From the NCBI GenBank assembly GCA_964016885.1, contig OZ024766.1, forward strand, positions 11,656,001-11,720,000: DNA of 64,000 nt, in the 5' to 3' direction. This document shows, one piece after another, positions 6,255-51,714 of the stretch (positions within the stretch are counted from its first letter, which is position 1; each line of letters begins with the position of its first letter). This DNA is from Eledone cirrhosa (lineage: Eukaryota). A program made the translations under genes and the position numbers. The notes beneath the pieces were generated by a model. The model had not been told where the DNA came from. It did not search any database and saw nothing but the letters and a program-made list of their open reading frames with translations.

Positions 6255-6472
6255 GGAGGCACATGGCTTAGTGGTTAGAACATTGGCCTTGCAATCGAAA
6301 GGTTGTGAGTTCAAATCTCACCGGGTGATGTGTTGTTTCCTTGAGCAAGACACTTTATTTCAAATTCCGCCGAGGTTGACTTTGCCTTTCACCCTTACGG
6401 GGTCGATAACATAAAGTACCAGTAATACACTGGGTAATTGCTGGCCTTGTGCCAAACGTAGAAACAATTACT
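6255..6472 (+). mobile_element. Chimeric SINE: family C head joined to family M body and tail
   Basis: Switches at ttatttcaaattccgccgagg from CORE-type sequence to the gcctttcacccttacggggtcgata domain. Confidence 0.7.
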
Positions 6473-7094: not shown

Positions 7095-7297
7095 CACCCC
7101 CTACTAAACACTCTCTTATGTCCCTGACTACTGATAGTGTATTTGATAAACATCTTTATTACTGTTTCTTTACCTAGCATTAATCATATTTTATGACAGG
7201 TGTGACTGTGTGAGTGTGTGTGTGTATATATATATACCAGGTGGTGGTATTAGTTAGACATGGCCTGGGCTAATACTGGCCGGAACCTATCAAAGTT

Positions 7298-7626
7298 GGC
7301 TTAGTGGTTAGAGCATTGGGCTTGCAATCGAAAGGTTGTGAGTTCAATTCTCAGACTGGGTGATGTGTTGTTTCCTTGAGCAAGACACTTTATTTCACAT
7401 TGCTCCAGTTTACTCAGCTGTAGAAATGAGATGATAGGGACTGGGGTCCCTATCATTCCACTGCAAAAGTGGCCGTGGAGGTGCCACGGCAAAAAAGCAC
7501 CCAGCACTCACTGTAAATGAGGTTGGTGTTAGGAAGGGCATCCAGCTGTAGAAATCAAGCCCGAATCAGTTCCCGTCCCACCCTTGCAAGCAGGGAAAAG
7601 TGGACGTAAAATGATGATGATGATGA
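7298..7626 (+). mobile_element. Near-full-length SINE family C (tRNA head, CORE-like domain, RTE-like 3' tail with (ATG)n)
   Basis: A/B boxes, hairpin atgatagggac-tggg-gtccctatcat, and tail ggacgtaaaatgatgatg shared with the RTE 3' end at 25115. Confidence 0.85.
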
Positions 7627-7699: not shown

Positions 7700-7905
7700 A
7701 GCTAAACTCTAATATAGAAATGGCTTCTACAGGACTAGAACGGTATCATTCAGAGGAAATTATCATGAAAGCCTCCGAATGTATGTATGTATATGAAACA
7801 GTTCTAGCCCTGTAGGAGTCATTTCTATATTAAATCTTTATACTCTGCTATGTATTGAGCACCTTACTTACTGTGGTTATCCCCGATTAAACCTGGGATA
7901 AACAT
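7700..7905 (+). mobile_element. Degenerate hammerhead element family D with inverted arm
   Basis: ctacaggactagaac / gaaacagttctagccctgtag arms. The 3' end ttactgtggttatccccg is shared with 8810, 15600 and 36550. Confidence 0.6.
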
Positions 7906-8737: not shown

Positions 8738-8933
8738 CTGTAGAAGCCATTTTTATGTTAAACATGATATATCTATATGTTTACACTCTACTAATGTATT
8801 GAGTACCTTCCTTACTGTGGTTATCTCGATTGAGCCCGAGGCCCACATATATATATATACACTCACACACACATTATATATATATATATATATTTTGAAA
8901 TATCCAGTTCTGCGTTTACAGATTGACTTTGTT

Positions 8934-8984
8934 AGTTTCAGAAGATCCCGTTAAGGGTGAAAGCAGCGATTCTTTGCTTAAACT
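8934..8984 (+). ncRNA. Hammerhead-like fold with variant core CAGAAGA (family G)
   Basis: AGTTT-CAGAAGA-T-CCC[gttaa]GGG-T-GAAA-GCA[gcgattctt]TGC-TT/AAACT. All three stems pair. Confidence 0.65.
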
Positions 8985-9000
8985 TTAATCTGTTATTTTA

Positions 9001-9038
<38 letters not shown>

Positions 9039-9039
<1 letters not shown>

Positions 9040-9301
9040 GTAGGAGGTGAGTTTTACTGTAGTACAATAAAGCAATGCAGATATCGGATAAGAAGCACTC
9101 TACAGTTTGTAGGACTGGAGTATACATAATATATAAGAACAATATGTTGATTTAAAACTGCACTATCCACAAGTGTTTTTTAACCTTCATATCATGTCTT
9201 CCTGTTTTATCTGATGAAAACAAATATTATTGCATGATGATATTTGTTTTTGAAATGCGCATAATAAAATACATGGAACTCTTTTAACCATCTTTTGTTC
9301 T

Positions 9302-9310
<9 letters not shown>
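9039..9310 (+). mobile_element. Hammerhead element family B, rearranged (inverted 3' end followed by sense 5' part)
   Basis: 9039-9142 is the reverse complement of the 3' part of 15697-15951. The rest matches its 5' part. Confidence 0.75.
9205..9269 (+). ncRNA. Type I hammerhead ribozyme, family B
   Basis: TTTTAT-CTGATGA-AAACAAATATtattgcatgatgATATTTGTTTtt-GAAA-TGCGCA-TA/ATAAAA. Palindromic ATGCGCAT stem III. Confidence 0.85.
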
Positions 9311-9332
<22 letters not shown>

Positions 9333-9660: not shown

Positions 9661-9685
9661 TATTTATTTATTAAAATAACAGATT

Positions 9686-9740
9686 AAAGTTTAAGCAAAG
9701 AATCGCTGCTTTCACCCTTAACGGGATCTTCTGAAACTTT
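9686..9740 (-). ncRNA. Second copy of the CAGAAGA-core hammerhead-like fold (family G)
   Basis: Minus strand: AAAGTTT-CAGAAGA...GAAAGCA..TGCTT/AAACTTT, with a 7-bp stem I. Confidence 0.65.
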
Positions 9741-10722: not shown

Positions 10723-10819
10723 TATATATATATATTATAAGAACAGATTAAAGTTTAAGCAAAGAATCGCTGCTTTCACCCTTAACGGATTTTAGTCTTC
10801 ACCTTTATTATTACTATTA

Positions 10820-11800: not shown

Positions 11801-11976
11801 ATAACCTTGAGTAAGAAATAACTACCACAACTCTTTGTGTTGTCCACATCAATACAAATCAATAACAGCTCAATAGCAGTGATTGATTGACTCTTCAAAG
11901 AAAGCTAAGTATTATTGAAACCTTGACAATGGCAGTGTCCATCTATCTATCTGTCCATCTATCTATCTATCTATCT

Positions 11977-14529
11977 AGTAAGGTTCTAGCTGCAGATAGG
12001 AATAGGAAGGAAAGGGAGCTAATAGATAGAGTAGAAGAGGCAATTAGAAGCGGCGACGTGGCCAGAGTGCTAGCGTCGAGAACGGCTTTGAGCCAGTTTT
12101 TCGACGCGAAGCACGAAGGCTGCGTTGTCCGAAGTAAAATACGTGCTCTAGGGAACGAGGGGACCAAAGCTGTTAGCTGGGCCCGCGTGACAGAGGCCAA
12201 CAGTGGAACTAAATCCACCATCCGGTCTTTGCGAGACCTGGATGGACGGGCGATTCTTGAGCCTAAGCAGATGTGTGAGGCCTTTCAAAGGCACTTTGCC
12301 CGACTGTTCGGGAGGGGCGGGGAGCCGGTTGGGAACGTGGACTTCGGTCCATACCTCGACGGCCTGCCGCGCCTCTCGGACAGGGAGGCGAAGTCCTGCG
12401 AGGAGCCGATTTCGGCCGCTGAGATAGAGGACGTGCTGAGCCAATGCGGCAAACGCAAATCCCCGGGTCTCGATGGTCTTCCTTACGAATTATATCTAGC
12501 TATGCCGGACTTGTTCCCCGATCTCCTCGAGGCGGTCTACTGCAACTGGCAACAGAACGGGAGAATTCCCTGTACTGTGACCAAGGGCGTAGTCACGCTA
12601 GTGAGGAAGGACGAGAACAAGGGGGACGAAATAAGTAACTTCAGGCCCATAACACTGCTAAATACAGAGTTACAGATTTTGGCCAAGGTGCTAGCAAAGA
12701 GGTTGGCGCTTGTCGTGGGCAACCTGGTGGGAGATGCGCAGACATGCGCTATCCCGTCCAGGTCCATCCATGACAACCTCCACCTCATGCGATACATCAT
12801 AGAGAGGGTTGGGAACGAACCCGGCTTTGGTGGGGCTCTGATCAACTTGGATCAATCTAAGGCGTTCGATAGGGTCGACCATGGTTACCTGGATGCGGTG
12901 CTAGCGGCGGCAGGCTTCGGACCCGTTTTCAGGGGCTGGATCACTGCTATGCACAGCAGCCGCATCTGCTCTAGGGTCAAGGTGAACGGCTACCTTTCGG
13001 AGCCGTTCAAAATCGCGCGGTCCATCCGACAAGGGTGCCCTCTCTCCTCCCTTCTGTATGTCTTGACTCTCGAGCCACTACTGCGGAAGTTGGAGTTGTT
13101 GCAGGGCATCCCTTTGGAACCGGGATTGCGGAAAGCGGTGTCGGCCTACGCCGATGACGTGACAGTAATGGTGTCGACGGCCTCCGAAATCGAGGCGGTC
13201 GGCACCTTACTGGAGGAGTACGAAAGGTTTACAGGGGCTAAGCTGAACCGGGACAAGTCGATCGGTTTGCAACTCGGCACGTGGAGGGGCAGACCGATGC
13301 CCTCCGATAGCGTCGTCGGACGCTGGACGGAGGGCCCGGTGAAGTTGCTCGGGGTCTGGTTCGGACCGGACCTCCAGGTGGAGAAAAACTGGGCGGAGGT
13401 TACGAACAGGGTGTTTGCACTGACCCAGAAGTGGGCCAGTTGCAAACTATCCCTGAAAGGTCGGGCGGAGGTGGCGAACACCTACATAGCGTCCGTCATC
13501 TACTACCGCCTGACCGTAGTGCCCTGCCCAAGGGAAACCCTCACCAAGATGGAGCGCGCGCTCTTCCAATTCCTTTGGAAGAGGCGGGCTCCTATGGTGA
13601 GGAGATCCATCTGCTGTCAACACCCTTCGAAAGGAGGGCTGGGGATGCCGTGGCTAATGATGTGTAAACACGCATTAAGGCTACGGCACCTCTACGTATT
13701 CCTCACCGGACAACCGGTGTGGGCCTCGTTTGTGAGACGAACCTTTCCCAGACTCATCTCACTCACCAAGCTGCAATCCTGGGTCAAGCAAAGACCGAGA
13801 AAACTGGGCGCCTGGCACACTGAGTGTGCCCAGGCGCTCACCGCCCTCTGGCAGGCGGATCCGGTTATCAGTGGAGACTCCACCGCAACATTCTATAGAG
13901 GGCTGGTACGCAGCAGGTGCGACGACGCCCTCGGAGAAGCCCTAGACATGGAGGAGGACGAACTGGCCAGCCTGTTCGGTAGGACATTCAGCCCGGGACC
14001 TATGGACAACTTCCAGAAGTCCCTGGCCTGGCAGTGCTACCGAGGGGCTTTACCCGTTCGAGAAAGGCTCTACAGACACGGGCGCCCGGGTAGGGACCCC
14101 GCCAAAAAGATCTGTCCCAGATGCGTGTGCGACGAGGAAACCGTTGCACACGCATTAGTACACTGCTCGGGCGTAGCCGATCTGTGGGGCTATGTCGAAC
14201 AACTGCTGTCAAGGGTAGGACCGATCCGGTTGACCACCGAGTCTATTGTAATGATCAAGCCGCCTCCCCCCTTCAAAGATGAAGCAGAGGCGGTGTTTCT
14301 GTGCGTAATAGCCATGGCGAAAGAGGTTGTATGGTGGACGCGTCTGAAAGGACTGAGGTCGGGCACCTTTCTCTCTGGCCAACAACTGGTCCGTTTCTTC
14401 CGATATCATTTCGGAAGAAGGATCAGGATGGAGAGAGAGGTGCTGCACCCCAGCCGTTTCTATGAAAGATGGGTGAAAGTGGCGAGAATGGCCCGTGTGA
14501 ATGGGCCTTCACTCTACATCAGACTATAG
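11977..14529 (+). CDS. ORF2 reverse transcriptase with C-terminal CCHC zinc knuckle (endonuclease lost by 5' truncation)
   Basis: Motifs KSPGLDGL, NFRPITLLN, LDQSKAFDRV, RQGCPLS, AYADD, GGLG and CPRC..EETVAHALVHC. About 850 codons with no stop. The first ~30 aa of the track ORF come from flanking DNA. Confidence 0.9.
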   Translation, partial: SKVLAADRNRKERELIDRVEEAIRSGDVARVLASRTALSQFFDAKHEGCVVRSKIRALGNEGTKAVSWARVTEANSGTKSTIRSLRDLDGRAILEPKQMCEAFQRHFARLFGRGGEPVGNVDFGPYLDGLPRLSDREAKSCEEPISAAEIEDVLSQCGKRKSPGLDGLPYELYLAMPDLFPDLLEAVYCNWQQNGRIPCTVTKGVVTLVRKDENKGDEISNFRPITLLNTELQILAKVLAKRLALVVGNLVGDAQTCAIPSRSIHDNLHLMRYIIERVGNEPGFGGALINLDQSKAFDRVDHGYLDAVLAAAGFGPVFRGWITAMHSSRICSRVKVNGYLSEPFKIARSIRQGCPLSSLLYVLTLEPLLRKLELLQGIPLEPGLRKAVSAYADDVTVMVSTASEIEAVGTLLEEYERFTGAKLNRDKSIGLQLGTWRGRPMPSDSVVGRWTEGPVKLLGVWFGPDLQVEKNWAEVTNRVFALTQKWASCKLSLKGRAEVANTYIASVIYYRLTVVPCPRETLTKMERALFQFLWKRRAPMVRRSICCQHPSKGGLGMPWLMMCKHALRLRHLYVFLTGQPVWASFVRRTFPRLISLTKLQSWVKQRPRKLGAWHTECAQALTALWQADPVISGDSTATFYRGLVRSRCDDALGEALDMEEDELASLFGRTFSPGPMDNFQKSLAWQCYRGALPVRERLYRHGRPGRDPAKKICPRCVCDEETVAHALVHCSGVADLWGYVEQLLSRVGPIRLTTESIVMIKPPPPFKDEAEAVFLCVIAMAKEVVWWTRLKGLRSGTFLSGQQLVRFFRYHFGRRIRMEREVLHPSRFYERWVKVARMARVNGPSLYIRL

Positions 14530-15575: not shown

Positions 15576-15640
15576 TTTACTCTGCCATGTATTGAGTACC
15601 TTACTTACTGTGGTTATCCCCGACTCAACCCGGGACCTAA

Positions 15641-15696
<56 letters not shown>

Positions 15697-15700
<4 letters not shown>

Positions 15701-15950
15701 ATTTAAAACTGAACTATCCACAAGTGTTTTTTAGCCTTCATATCATGTCCTCCTGTTTTATCTGATGAAAACACAAATATTATTGCATGATGATATTTGT
15801 TTTTGAAATGTGCATAATAAAATACATGGAACTCCTTTAACCATCTTTTGTTCTTATATATTATGTATACTCCAGTCCCACAAACTGTAGAGTGCTTCTT
15901 ATCCGATATCTGCATTGCTTTATTGTACTACAATAAAACTCACCTCCTAC

Positions 15951-15951
<1 letters not shown>
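15697..15951 (+). mobile_element. Intact ~255-bp unit of hammerhead element family B
   Basis: (TA)n-ttgatttaaaact...ctcacctcctaca-(TA)n. Colinear with the pieces at 9039-9310 and 38045-38430. Confidence 0.8.
15756..15822 (+). ncRNA. Type I hammerhead ribozyme, family B
   Basis: TTTTAT-CTGATGA...GAAA-TGTGCA-TA/ATAAAA (CpG-type transition in stem III). Confidence 0.75.
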
Positions 15952-15999
<48 letters not shown>

Positions 16000-36504: not shown

Positions 36505-36705
36505 CTATATTAAAACTTTTATACTCTGCTATGTATTGAGTACCTTACTTACTGTGGTTACCTCCGATTCAACCCGGAATAACGTATATTTATATATATA
36601 AATATATATATATATTTATATATATACTATCCGGGAGCTTCCATCAGTAATGGTTGCATTTTTTAAGGGTATGTCAATATTTATTTATAAAACTGATCTA
36701 TATTA

Positions 36706-36770: not shown

Positions 36771-37142
36771 AATATGGTTTTATAAATATAGTTTCCATTT
36801 GTTAATATCGTATATATATATATATATTTAACGAAGGAAATGTGGCAAGGAACCAGGTGGACCATAACGCACCAAAGTACTCAATATTTAGAGTAGTAGA
36901 GTGGGTAATAGGAACGAGTAGGACCCCGACGGCTGAGCTCAAGCCGTCAAAACGGCTTGAGCTCAGCCGTTGAAATGGTTTGAGCTCAGCCGTCAGGGTC
37001 CTACTCGTTCCTATATATATTTATGTATTTATATATATATGCATATTTATTAGAATAACAGATTAAAGTTTAAGCAAAGAATCACTGCTTTCAACCTTAT
37101 ATATATTTATCCTTATCGAGCTCTCTTTGGATTTTAGTCTTC

Positions 37143-37933: not shown

Positions 37934-38172
37934 GCTATTGTTTCCCCCCGTTGTATTGTATGTCTACGCCATTTTTATTTAGTCTGAAAATATAGAAATT
38001 ATTGTGAGCAATATTATATATATATATAATATATATATATATATGTAGGAGGTGAGTTTTATTGTAGTACAATAAAGCAATGCAGATATCGGATAAGAAG
38101 CACTCTACAGTTTGTGGGACTGGAGTATACATAATATATAAGATCAAAAGATGGTTAAAGGAGTTCCATGTA

Positions 38173-38239
38173 TTTTATTATGCGCATTTCAAAAACAAAC
38201 ATCATCATGCAATAATATTTGTGTTTTCATCAGATAAAA
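38173..38239 (-). ncRNA. Type I hammerhead ribozyme, family B (inverted copy)
   Basis: Reverse complement of 38322-38388. Confidence 0.8.
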
Positions 38240-38321
38240 CATATATATCATTATATATATATATTGATTTAAAACTGCACTATCCACAAGTGTTTTTTAG
38301 CCTTCATATCATGTCCTCCTG

Positions 38322-38388
38322 TTTTATCTGATGAAAACACAAATATTATTGCATGATGATGTTTGTTTTTGAAATGCGCATAATAAAA
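38322..38388 (+). ncRNA. Type I hammerhead ribozyme, family B
   Basis: TTTTAT-CTGATGA...GAAA-TGCGCA-TA/ATAAAA. Confidence 0.8.
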
Positions 38389-38421
38389 TACATGGAACTC
38401 CTTTAACCATCTTTTGATCTT

Positions 38422-38463
<42 letters not shown>

Positions 38464-50980: not shown

Positions 50981-51239
50981 ATATATATATATATATATAT
51001 ATATACAAGTGGATGCTTAGTAAAATTGAAGCTTTGGTTGTGGCCAAGCAAAGTCGACCTACAATAAGGAATGAGTAGTAAAGCACTCAATAAGGGTAGG
51101 TCGTTAGAGTAATAACAGACGTTTAAATCGCTTGACAAATTGAAAATTGCAGTAGGCAAAACCCAACCATACAGTACCAAAACAATATATATATATATGG
51201 AGGAGGTTATAGTTCACTTGAAGCATTGTGTAATGAGGT

Positions 51240-51697
51240 ATAAACGTTTGAATATGTATAATAAAGCCAAAACAATGCAGGTATGGACATAGAAAAAAAG
51301 AATGCAATTGCAAAAGATATTGTTGACAATTCGTCTTTTACCTTAGATTTATTTTAAACGTCCTTAATTTTCGAGATAATATCTCTTCTTCAGAGGGAAA
51401 TAAAGGTCTCAAAACAGCGTTCTAAATATCTTGCCAAGCCATGCTGACAGGAAATAGTATAGAGTATCTGTTCTATCTCTAATGTCAAAGAGTTTAACTC
51501 TGACATTAGAGATAGAACAGATACTTTGAGACCTTTATTTCCCTCTGAAGAAGAGATATTATCTCGAAAATTAAGGACGTTTAAAATAAATCTAAGGTAA
51601 AAGACGAATTGTCAACAATATCTTTTGCAATTGCATTCTTTTTTCTATGTCCATACCTGCATTGTTTTGGCTTTATTATACATATTCAAACGTTTAT
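51240..51697. mobile_element. (TA)n-flanked hammerhead element family I, ~170-bp inverted arms
   Basis: 51240-51413 is the reverse complement of 51525-51697. Each arm contains a hammerhead core. Confidence 0.75.
51542..51576 (+). ncRNA. Ultra-minimal hammerhead fold, family I (mirror copy on - strand at 51362-51396)
   Basis: CCT-CTGAAGA-A-GAGAT[att]ATCTC-GAAA-AT-TA/AGG. AATT palindromic stem III. Confidence 0.6.
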
Positions 51698-51714
51698 ATA
51701 TATATATATATATA

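What the first reader, a model, noticed from the sequence alone, without database searches (positions are those of the whole stretch)
15697..15951. Family B defines a discrete ~255-nt ribozyme retro-unit with fixed ends
Seen: three loci begin at the same ttgatttaaaact and end at the same ctcacctcctaca-(TA)n. One is colinear (15697). One has the 3' end inverted ahead of the 5' part (9039). One is a divergent inverted pair with two hammerheads (38045-38430). The copies are nearly identical and have no ORF. Inference: a recently mobile non-autonomous unit in the size range of metazoan retrozymes and PLE pLTRs.
Basis: partly seen in the sequence, partly recalled or inferred. Interest (0 to 1): 0.75.

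Follow-up and report, generated by a model that had tools for sequence, protein, structure and literature searches.

The report
Penelope transposon end with cap footprint
This 255-base piece is the end of a protein-coding Penelope-type jumping gene with thousands of copies in this animal genome, not a tandem retrozyme, and its short copies often carry an extra G at one fixed start, which likely records the capped end of the RNA that was copied.

Summary
The three loci and the hammerhead motif are real, but the unit is not a stand-alone retrozyme. It is the pseudo-LTR plus tail of an autonomous Hydra-type Penelope-like retrotransposon (3.6-3.9 kb, 798-aa RT/GIY-YIG frame, intact copies elsewhere in the genome). 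Only 24 of 100 consecutive copies have both ends as described; 49 run upstream into the element, and 3' ends fall at two sites. Head-to-tail monomers are all but absent. Insertions are head-to-head pairs in (TA)n, one arm ending at each site (94 of 106), both of one subfamily (62 of 75). The 5' hot spot carries an untemplated G (87 of 100 after TA runs, template C 4), likely a copied cap; the ribozyme cut site is no hot spot. Copies longer than one unit never stop there (0 of 15), which points to a second, circular or multimeric template.

The parts
15697..15951 (+). pLTR plus tail arm of the Penelope-like element (unit 1-255), from the inferred RNA start to the distal end; no partner arm visible (it may be absent or hidden in the TA run)
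15744..15828 (+). Type I hammerhead motif: split helix I (15744-15748/15824-15828 and 15755-15761/15817-15823), core 15762-15768, long helix II 15773-15800, GAAA 15805-15808, near-palindromic helix III region, predicted cut after 15816
   Evidence: activity not tested
15860..15869 (+). Proximal end site (unit ~164-173), where 58 of 100 sampled arms stop and turn into (TA)n; inferred first reverse-transcription start
15868..15894 (+). Predicted bulged hairpin just behind the proximal end site (-5.0 kcal/mol)
   Evidence: role untested
15870..15951 (+). Tail (about 82-91 nt) present on one arm of a pair; distal end at 15951 is the inferred second start; in coding copies the sequence runs on 84 nt to the ATG
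15645..15696 (.). (TA)n run upstream; the element's first bases (unit -3 to 0) merge with it
15952..15991 (.). (TA)n run downstream (target microsatellite)
9039..9142 (-). Inverted arm, unit 152-255 (distal end, no hammerhead)
9142..9316 (+). Partner arm from unit -3 to the proximal end, with hammerhead core at 9211-9255
38044..38241 (-). Inverted arm, unit 58-255 (distal end), hammerhead core 38233-38187 with the outer part of helix I cut off
38242..38262 (.). AT-rich filler at the head-to-head junction
38263..38427 (+). Partner arm, unit 1-165 (proximal end), hammerhead core 38328-38374

Best explanation
The 255-nt unit is the pseudo-LTR and tail of an autonomous Hydra-type Penelope-like retrotransposon, and the short copies in the window are likely run-off products made when the element's enzyme cuts a (TA)n repeat, starts copying inside its own uncut RNA at two fixed sites and falls off at the RNA's capped 5' end. 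Shown: the unit is contiguous with an RT/GIY-YIG frame; arms end at two sites about 85-90 nt apart; pairs are head-to-head with one end of each kind and one subfamily; the common 5' start carries a G that the template lacks. Inferred: the G is a copied cap, so the start is the transcription start (A of TC-A, unit -3); each end of the cut target primes one arm on the same RNA, one at the proximal and one at the distal site; the two cDNA ends are then joined, often through the AT-rich first bases. The hammerhead has likely not cut the RNA that makes short arms. Arms that pass the start site come from initiation at a downstream pLTR, and those longer than one unit need a template that is continuous across the start (ligated circle or multi-unit transcript).
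For: Coding link: top copies run upstream into shared sequence, then a frame with YRDD, CxCx5C, GIY-YIG-type and CxxC/CxH motifs; intact 798- and 799-aa frames, one between two direct pLTR+tail copies 3,710 nt apart; model pLDDT 79, best structural match telomerase TERT, E 1.2e-7. Ends: of 100 consecutive hits on one contig, 58 stop at 160-175, 41 at ~255, 1 runs into the frame; 49 are body-linked; 274 of 292 ends are followed by a TA run. Pairs: 94 of 106 head-to-head pairs are proximal/distal (24 of 28 in unselected loci); 62 of 75 pairs are identical at subfamily-diagnostic columns against a mean of 11 and a maximum of 21 in 500 re-pairings; no arm that starts at the hot spot has an adjoining partner in the frame or 3' region (0 of 128 candidate arms after reading the 35 flagged rows by eye). 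Cap G: 2,087 of 4,342 non-C junctions have G; directly after a TA run 87 G, 9 A, 4 C of 100 listed of 102 (counted by eye) against background A 278, C 126, G 122; body-linked arms have C in 85 of 86 and G in none, while G arms occur on 8 of the 10 commonest haplotypes. An extra G from the cap is described for full-length L1 and SVA insertions (PMC11702581, PMC2912911; passages). Cut site: about 37 of 100 listed of 400 hits are breaks at 118-121, roughly 150 in all, against over 4,300 at the cap site (by eye). Internal two-site initiation, the tail, and use of uncut RNA were shown in vitro for Poseidon_Ac (PMC11167929, parts 1-2 of 4).
Against: No RNA data: start site, cap, cleavage and circle are all inferred from DNA. 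The query protein itself has no Pfam match (GIY-YIG in only 2 of 14 aligned relatives) and no tree with published Hydra sequences was built. About 18 of the first 100 G junctions could take the G from the partner's templated base and about a dozen from short duplications (by eye), so only the TA-flanked set is clean. Shared haplotypes within pairs could partly reflect repair between inverted arms. One true distal/distal pair (L066) and 13 of 75 pairs with diagnostic differences exist. A unit-length capped mRNA cannot explain copies longer than one unit (0 of 15 stop at the cap site). The hammerhead region is not more stable than shuffles (z -0.87). Samples come mostly from one contig, and some loci were picked as best hits or for the G.
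Confidence: 0.78

Rival explanations
1. Short capped RNAs made from 3' pLTRs or solo copies, which far outnumber coding copies, are copied in trans, so the unit behaves partly as a non-autonomous SINE-like element.
For: Only 224 exact pLTR-to-frame junctions against 8,603 start and 14,103 tail matches; the Penelope pLTR holds an internal promoter (PMC2377424, passages); a few rare haplotypes were seen only in solo arms (2-3 arms each). The cap G fits this as well as the best explanation.
Against: The eight commonest haplotypes all occur in both solo and body-linked arms; 27 of about 135 distal ends keep TTA, the first bases of the frame-side sequence; Poseidon_Ac needs RNA downstream of its start sites (PMC11167929), which solo copies lack; in solo copies the C before the start is mostly replaced.
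Confidence: 0.3
2. A metazoan non-LTR retrozyme: a 255-nt monomer that self-cleaves from tandem transcripts, circularises and is reinserted.
For: Size, low GC, type I hammerhead, no frame in the window; retrozymes are reported to derive from pLTRs (10.64898/2026.07.22.740005, part 1 of 5 and passages).
Against: Head-to-tail junction patterns give 1 match each genome-wide: one is a fold-back, one is two copies with different alleles joined by a TA run. The unit is part of a coding element, and its 5' hot spot is 120 nt upstream of the cut site.
Confidence: 0.04
3. The 5' hot spot comes from DNA or cDNA fold-back or nicking at the palindromic CATATG (self-priming on an antisense template, as proposed for rotifer Penelope palindromes), not from an RNA start.
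For: Many junctions are perfect palindromes centred on CATATG (16 of 51 non-body arms match the template through the C); the model is in print (PMC3846280, passages).
Against: It does not predict an untemplated G (87 of 100), starts joined straight to TA runs, partners truncated at many other positions, or the lack of stops in copies longer than one unit.
Confidence: 0.1

Closest known systems
Hydra clade of C-terminal EN+ Penelope-like elements (Craig et al. 2021, PMC8557442; sections 11-12, passages, supplement part 2 of 59 and supplement searches read; includes Hydra-1_Obim from an octopus)
   Same: Single RT + C-terminal GIY-YIG frame with DKT, CxCx5C linker, CxxC and CxH around the conserved E and N, no CCHH; hammerhead in the terminal repeat; (TA)n target; inverted 5'-truncated partner and one-sided tail.
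   Different: 3.6-3.9 kb rather than under 3 kb (about 800-970 nt after the stop; an asparagine-rich low-confidence insert of about 75 aa before the CxCx5C motif); RWI for RWK; tail about 82-91 nt rather than 30-40; hammerhead differs from the listed Hydra-1_Obim motif; at least 14,000 tail ends.
Poseidon_Ac in vitro (Frangieh et al. 2024, PMC11167929; parts 1-2 of 4 read)
   Same: Two internal RT starts that bracket the tail; AT-rich target; both strands extended; uncut RNA as substrate; no read ends at the hammerhead cut.
   Different: There the hammerhead and starts overlap the frame and no strand difference in start site was seen; here they lie upstream of the ATG and genomic pairs take one start each. 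The parts read do not describe a cap G or solo run-off arms.
[quoted passage not shown]
   Same: Long helix II, tiny palindromic helix III suited to a dimer, mostly single motifs from truncated PLEs, pairs on opposite strands 100-700 bp apart.
   Different: Helix II is 12 bp or more; helix I is 7 + 5 bp around a polymorphic bulge.
Metazoan non-LTR retrozymes (PMC7229834, passages; 10.64898/2026.07.22.740005, part 1 and passages)
   Same: Size, low GC, type I hammerhead, link to PLEs.
   Different: No head-to-tail arrays; part of a coding element; boundaries not set by the ribozyme.
Extra 5' G of full-length L1 and SVA insertions; L1 twin priming (PMC11702581, PMC2912911; passages read)
   Same: Untemplated G at a complete 5' end; two target ends each priming on one RNA.
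   Different: In L1 twin priming the two pieces do not overlap; here both arms copy the same stretch, from fixed internal sites, with no poly(A).

Membership tests
Hydra-clade PLE | Single frame with RT and C-terminal GIY-YIG endonuclease | tested here: met
   798-aa frame; TERT best fold match; GIY-YIG-type motif by alignment, Pfam GIY-YIG in 2 of 14 aligned members but not in the query
Hydra-clade PLE | DKG modified to DKT | tested here: met
   HSDKTNN
Hydra-clade PLE | N-terminal RWK motif | tested here: inconclusive
   RWI in the query, in the column where most aligned relatives have RWK
Hydra-clade PLE | CxCx5C linker before the endonuclease | tested here: met
   CNCPVKNKC
Hydra-clade PLE | No CCHH in the endonuclease; CxxC and CxH either side of conserved E and N | tested here: met
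   One Cys inside the GIY-YIG core; CNLC..NEK..N..CLH, read by eye against section 11
Hydra-clade PLE | Insertion into (TA)n | tested here: met
   274 of 292 arm ends
Hydra-clade PLE | Hammerhead in the terminal repeat | tested here: met
   Motif and helices present; activity untested
Hydra-clade PLE | Generally under 3 kb (a tendency in the paper, not a rule) | tested here: not met
   3,555, 3,710 and 3,940 nt between pLTR starts in three copies
Hydra-clade PLE | RT groups with reference Hydra RTs in a tree | not tested
   Published sequences were seen only as supplement text; motifs are collinear by eye
EN+ PLE insertion structure | Partial tandem pLTR, inverted 5'-truncated partner, tail at one end | tested here: met
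Non-LTR retrozyme | Head-to-tail repeats with a hammerhead in each unit | tested here: not met
   1 match for each of two junction patterns (gap up to 30 nt), neither a clean dimer
Non-LTR retrozyme | Non-coding, separate from an autonomous element | tested here: not met
   49 of 100 arms body-linked; 224 junctions into the frame
Non-LTR retrozyme | Monomeric circular RNA in tissue | not testable with these tools
   No RNA run was listed
Non-LTR retrozyme | Canonical hammerhead with loop 1-loop 2 contacts, efficient cleavage | not tested
   Architecture resembles PLE motifs (long helix II, palindromic helix III); no tertiary or kinetic test

The most novel reading that the evidence does not exclude
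The element runs on two RNA templates that its insertions record separately: a capped, uncut precursor whose 5' end yields the short head-to-head arms with a copied cap G, and a hammerhead-cut, ligated unit-length (about 3.7 kb) circle that yields long arms and rebuilds the pLTR by copying past one turn. One enzyme dimer copies one RNA twice, each target end starting at its own site. This would give the PLE hammerhead a job and explain where pLTRs come from.
Probability: 0.3. Interest if true: 0.78.

Novelty: new member of a known kind. Interest (0 to 1): 0.48.

Why it matters
The family itself is ordinary: a young, abundant Hydra-type PLE. Its value is statistical. How PLEs make pLTRs, tails and head-to-head inversions, and what their hammerheads do, is described as unresolved in the papers read (PMC2377424, PMC3846280, PMC8557442, PMC11167929). 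Here thousands of near-identical insertions fix the predicted RNA start to the base, argue for a sense, capped, uncut template for short arms (against antisense self-priming), tie both arms to one template, and show that long copies ignore the start site. Each point gives a direct experiment, and intact frames exist for an in vitro test.

Tried and rejected
Rfam at gathering thresholds found no hammerhead in the window, only two tRNA-like heads. Single-strand folds of the motif and of the unit were no better than shuffles (z -0.87 and -1.04); support for the motif comes from core conservation (15 changes in 3,341 core bases, 12 in 3,077 inner helix I bases, against 0.9-1.2% in other invariant columns), pair-keeping polymorphisms (G-U/A-U only, no double changes; copies are not independent) and other families nearby (11 of 36 clusters with helix I of 5 bp or more, controls 1 of 7 and 0 of 2). 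The ratio 8,603 to 2,356 overstates the 5' step because the upstream pattern is polymorphic; the sample value (about half) is used. Neptune was my first guess for the clade (recalled) and was dropped after reading the Hydra definition. Pfam and PDB sequence searches with the protein were blank. No RNA holder listed; contigs of four DNA runs carry the family but say nothing on starts. Hammerhead cut site as 5' hot spot: not seen. Twin-hairpin signal (lead from earlier notes): a good bulged hairpin follows the proximal end and a same-shaped but weak one (-1.6 to +1.8 kcal/mol, mismatch in 2 of 5 variants) follows the distal end; overall similarity of the two segments is not significant (462 of 2000 shuffles), so inconclusive. 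The junction classifier was set aside because 30 of its loci had been chosen for G. Positions are shifted by one after about unit 30 and were redone. In one search, 19 rows flagged as frame-side partners were read by eye: 13 are partners at the start site (boundary error) and 6 match a TA run; 4-5 rows without element match are body-linked copies of a diverged subfamily. Target-site duplications could not be read inside (TA)n. Paper searches and note searches gave no report of a cap G in PLE insertions; subscription papers and the preprint's supplements were not visible.

Full report
Observation. The three loci are in the window and are 95-100% alike. 15697-15951 is a single arm between TA runs. 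The other two loci are head-to-head pairs: at 9039 an inverted arm covering unit 152-255 meets an arm from the start to about 173; at 38044 an inverted arm covering 58-255 meets an arm covering 1-165. The hammerhead core is at 15762-15816 with the predicted cut after 15816; such cores occur 16 times in the window against 1.08 by chance. Rfam did not detect it and the fold alone is not exceptional, but core and inner helix I change at about half the rate of other invariant columns, common variants keep the pairs, and 246 of 264 arms have the palindromic helix III. Activity is untested.

What it belongs to. The window lies in a 3.0-Gb genome. Exact 22-mers give 8,603 matches for the unit's start and 14,103 for its end. 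Several best hits continue upstream into shared sequence, and following it leads to one frame of 798-799 aa, intact in at least two copies. In tandem copies the order is pLTR+tail, 84 nt, ATG, frame, about 800-970 nt, pLTR ending at either site; the repeat length is 3,555-3,940 nt. The protein has no Pfam or PDB sequence match, has 37 relatives at E up to 1e-10 among 7,993 scored candidates, mostly unnamed, folds at pLDDT 79 and matches telomerase TERT best. Its DKT, CxCx5C, CxxC and CxH motifs, the lack of CCHH, the hammerhead and the (TA)n target fit the Hydra clade as defined in PMC8557442 section 11; it is longer than listed members and has RWI for RWK; no tree with reference sequences was built.

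Are the ends fixed? Among the first 30 tail hits, 6 start at the hot spot, 13 inside the unit and 11 upstream. So there is one strong 5' hot spot and two 3' ends. Head-to-tail junctions give one match per pattern and neither is a clean dimer: this is not a retrozyme array.

How pairs are built. Of 106 head-to-head pairs, 94 combine one proximal and one distal end; of the 12 others, 4 have an arm that runs on into the frame, most of the rest are alignment breaks at small deletions or duplications, and one (L066) is truly distal/distal (24 of 28 in unselected loci). The arms of a pair share subfamily letters (62 of 75 identical; re-paired mean 11, maximum 21). Arms that start at the hot spot adjoin partners that start there too or inside the unit, never a partner in the frame or 3' region (128 candidates, flagged rows read by eye), although about half of all arms pass that site. 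I infer that both arms are copied from one RNA. Private differences average about 1%, so activity is recent.

What sets the 5' hot spot. The template has C before the first A (85 of 86 body-linked arms). Arms that begin there show G in 2,087 of 4,342 non-C cases. Some of these could borrow the G from the partner, so I counted arms joined straight to a TA run: 87 G, 9 A, 4 C in the 100 listed of 102, where TA-run interruptions elsewhere give G and C equally (122 and 126). G arms occur on 8 of the 10 commonest haplotypes, so the G is added anew. An extra G from the cap is described for full-length L1 and SVA copies (passages of PMC11702581 and PMC2912911), and the D. virilis Penelope pLTR holds the start and an internal promoter (passages of PMC2377424). 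The likely reading is a capped transcription start at unit -3. The ribozyme cut site shows only background breaks (about 150, from 37 of 100 listed of 400), in line with uncut RNA being the substrate in vitro (PMC11167929).

What does not fit a single linear RNA. 224 exact junctions join the tail to the frame side. In the first 30, the upstream pLTR starts beyond the hot spot in 15, inside the unit in 11, could not be aligned in 4, and starts at the hot spot in none. Copies longer than one unit thus pass the site without stopping, so their template is continuous there: a ribozyme-cut and ligated circle, or a multi-unit or read-through transcript. DNA cannot separate these. Nor can it tell whether the capped template of short arms is the 5' end of full mRNA or a short transcript of a 3' or solo copy; shared haplotypes and the downstream RNA requirement of Poseidon_Ac favour the former.

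Comparison and verdict. Hammerheads in pLTRs, opposite-strand pairs, one-sided tails and (TA)n targeting are in print (PMC4209133, PMC8557442, PMC3846280), and earlier notes of this scan describe two-armed Penelope insertions, twin hairpins and a possible RNA start in other families of this genome. My test of the twin hairpins was inconclusive. Seven paper searches and five note searches showed no report of a cap G or of the split between capped short arms and non-stopping long copies in PLEs. The retrozyme reading fails; the thing is a new family of a known clade whose insertion statistics make the PLE copying cycle testable. Interest 0.48.

Noticed in passing
window 5719, 6593, 6842(-), 10198, 36457, 36714, 37902(-), 51369(-), 51545, 54350(-): Further hammerhead cores of at least six other families; 51369(-)/51545(+) lie in a 460-nt inverted pair (51239-51698) like the pairs described here.
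   Followed up: no
window 11887-14526 +: 880-aa stop-to-stop frame with RVT_1 (E 3.9e-26) and zf-RVT, a non-LTR retrotransposon of another kind.
   Followed up: partly
window 6264-6321 and 7290-7362 +: tRNA-like heads (Rfam tRNA 29-38 bits) of a dispersed repeat, probably a tRNA-derived SINE with several copies in the window.
   Followed up: no
window 15578-15644 and 8934-9004: The TA runs that hold two of the loci follow the ends of other repeat families (matches at 7841-7898, 8768-8838, 36518-36576; 9668-9738, 10733-10788, 37047-37099), so insertions nest in TA runs left by or attracting other elements.
   Followed up: no
L227 frame, residues about 579-655: Asparagine/serine/threonine-rich insert before the CxCx5C motif, absent from 13 aligned relatives and disordered in the model; N-rich inserts are reported in rotifer Penelope frames (PMC3846280).
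   Followed up: partly
P0011: A database relative of the frame (37% identity, E 4e-118) is named 'GATA zinc finger domain-containing protein 14-like' in a cephalopod annotation, probably a misnamed PLE protein.
   Followed up: no
L136, L231, L283: A small hairpin in the tail (unit 223-241) forms perfect fold-back junctions: an arm 255 back to 223 runs straight into 223 onward.
   Followed up: no
L066 1776-3941 (oriented): A second, diverged PLE frame of the same kind lies next to this family's insertion.
   Followed up: no
G000 pattern hits: Seven of 100 listed copies lack exactly three bases at the predicted cut site (helix III joined to helix I); could be simple slippage in a short ATA repeat or a cut-and-rejoin scar.
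   Followed up: no
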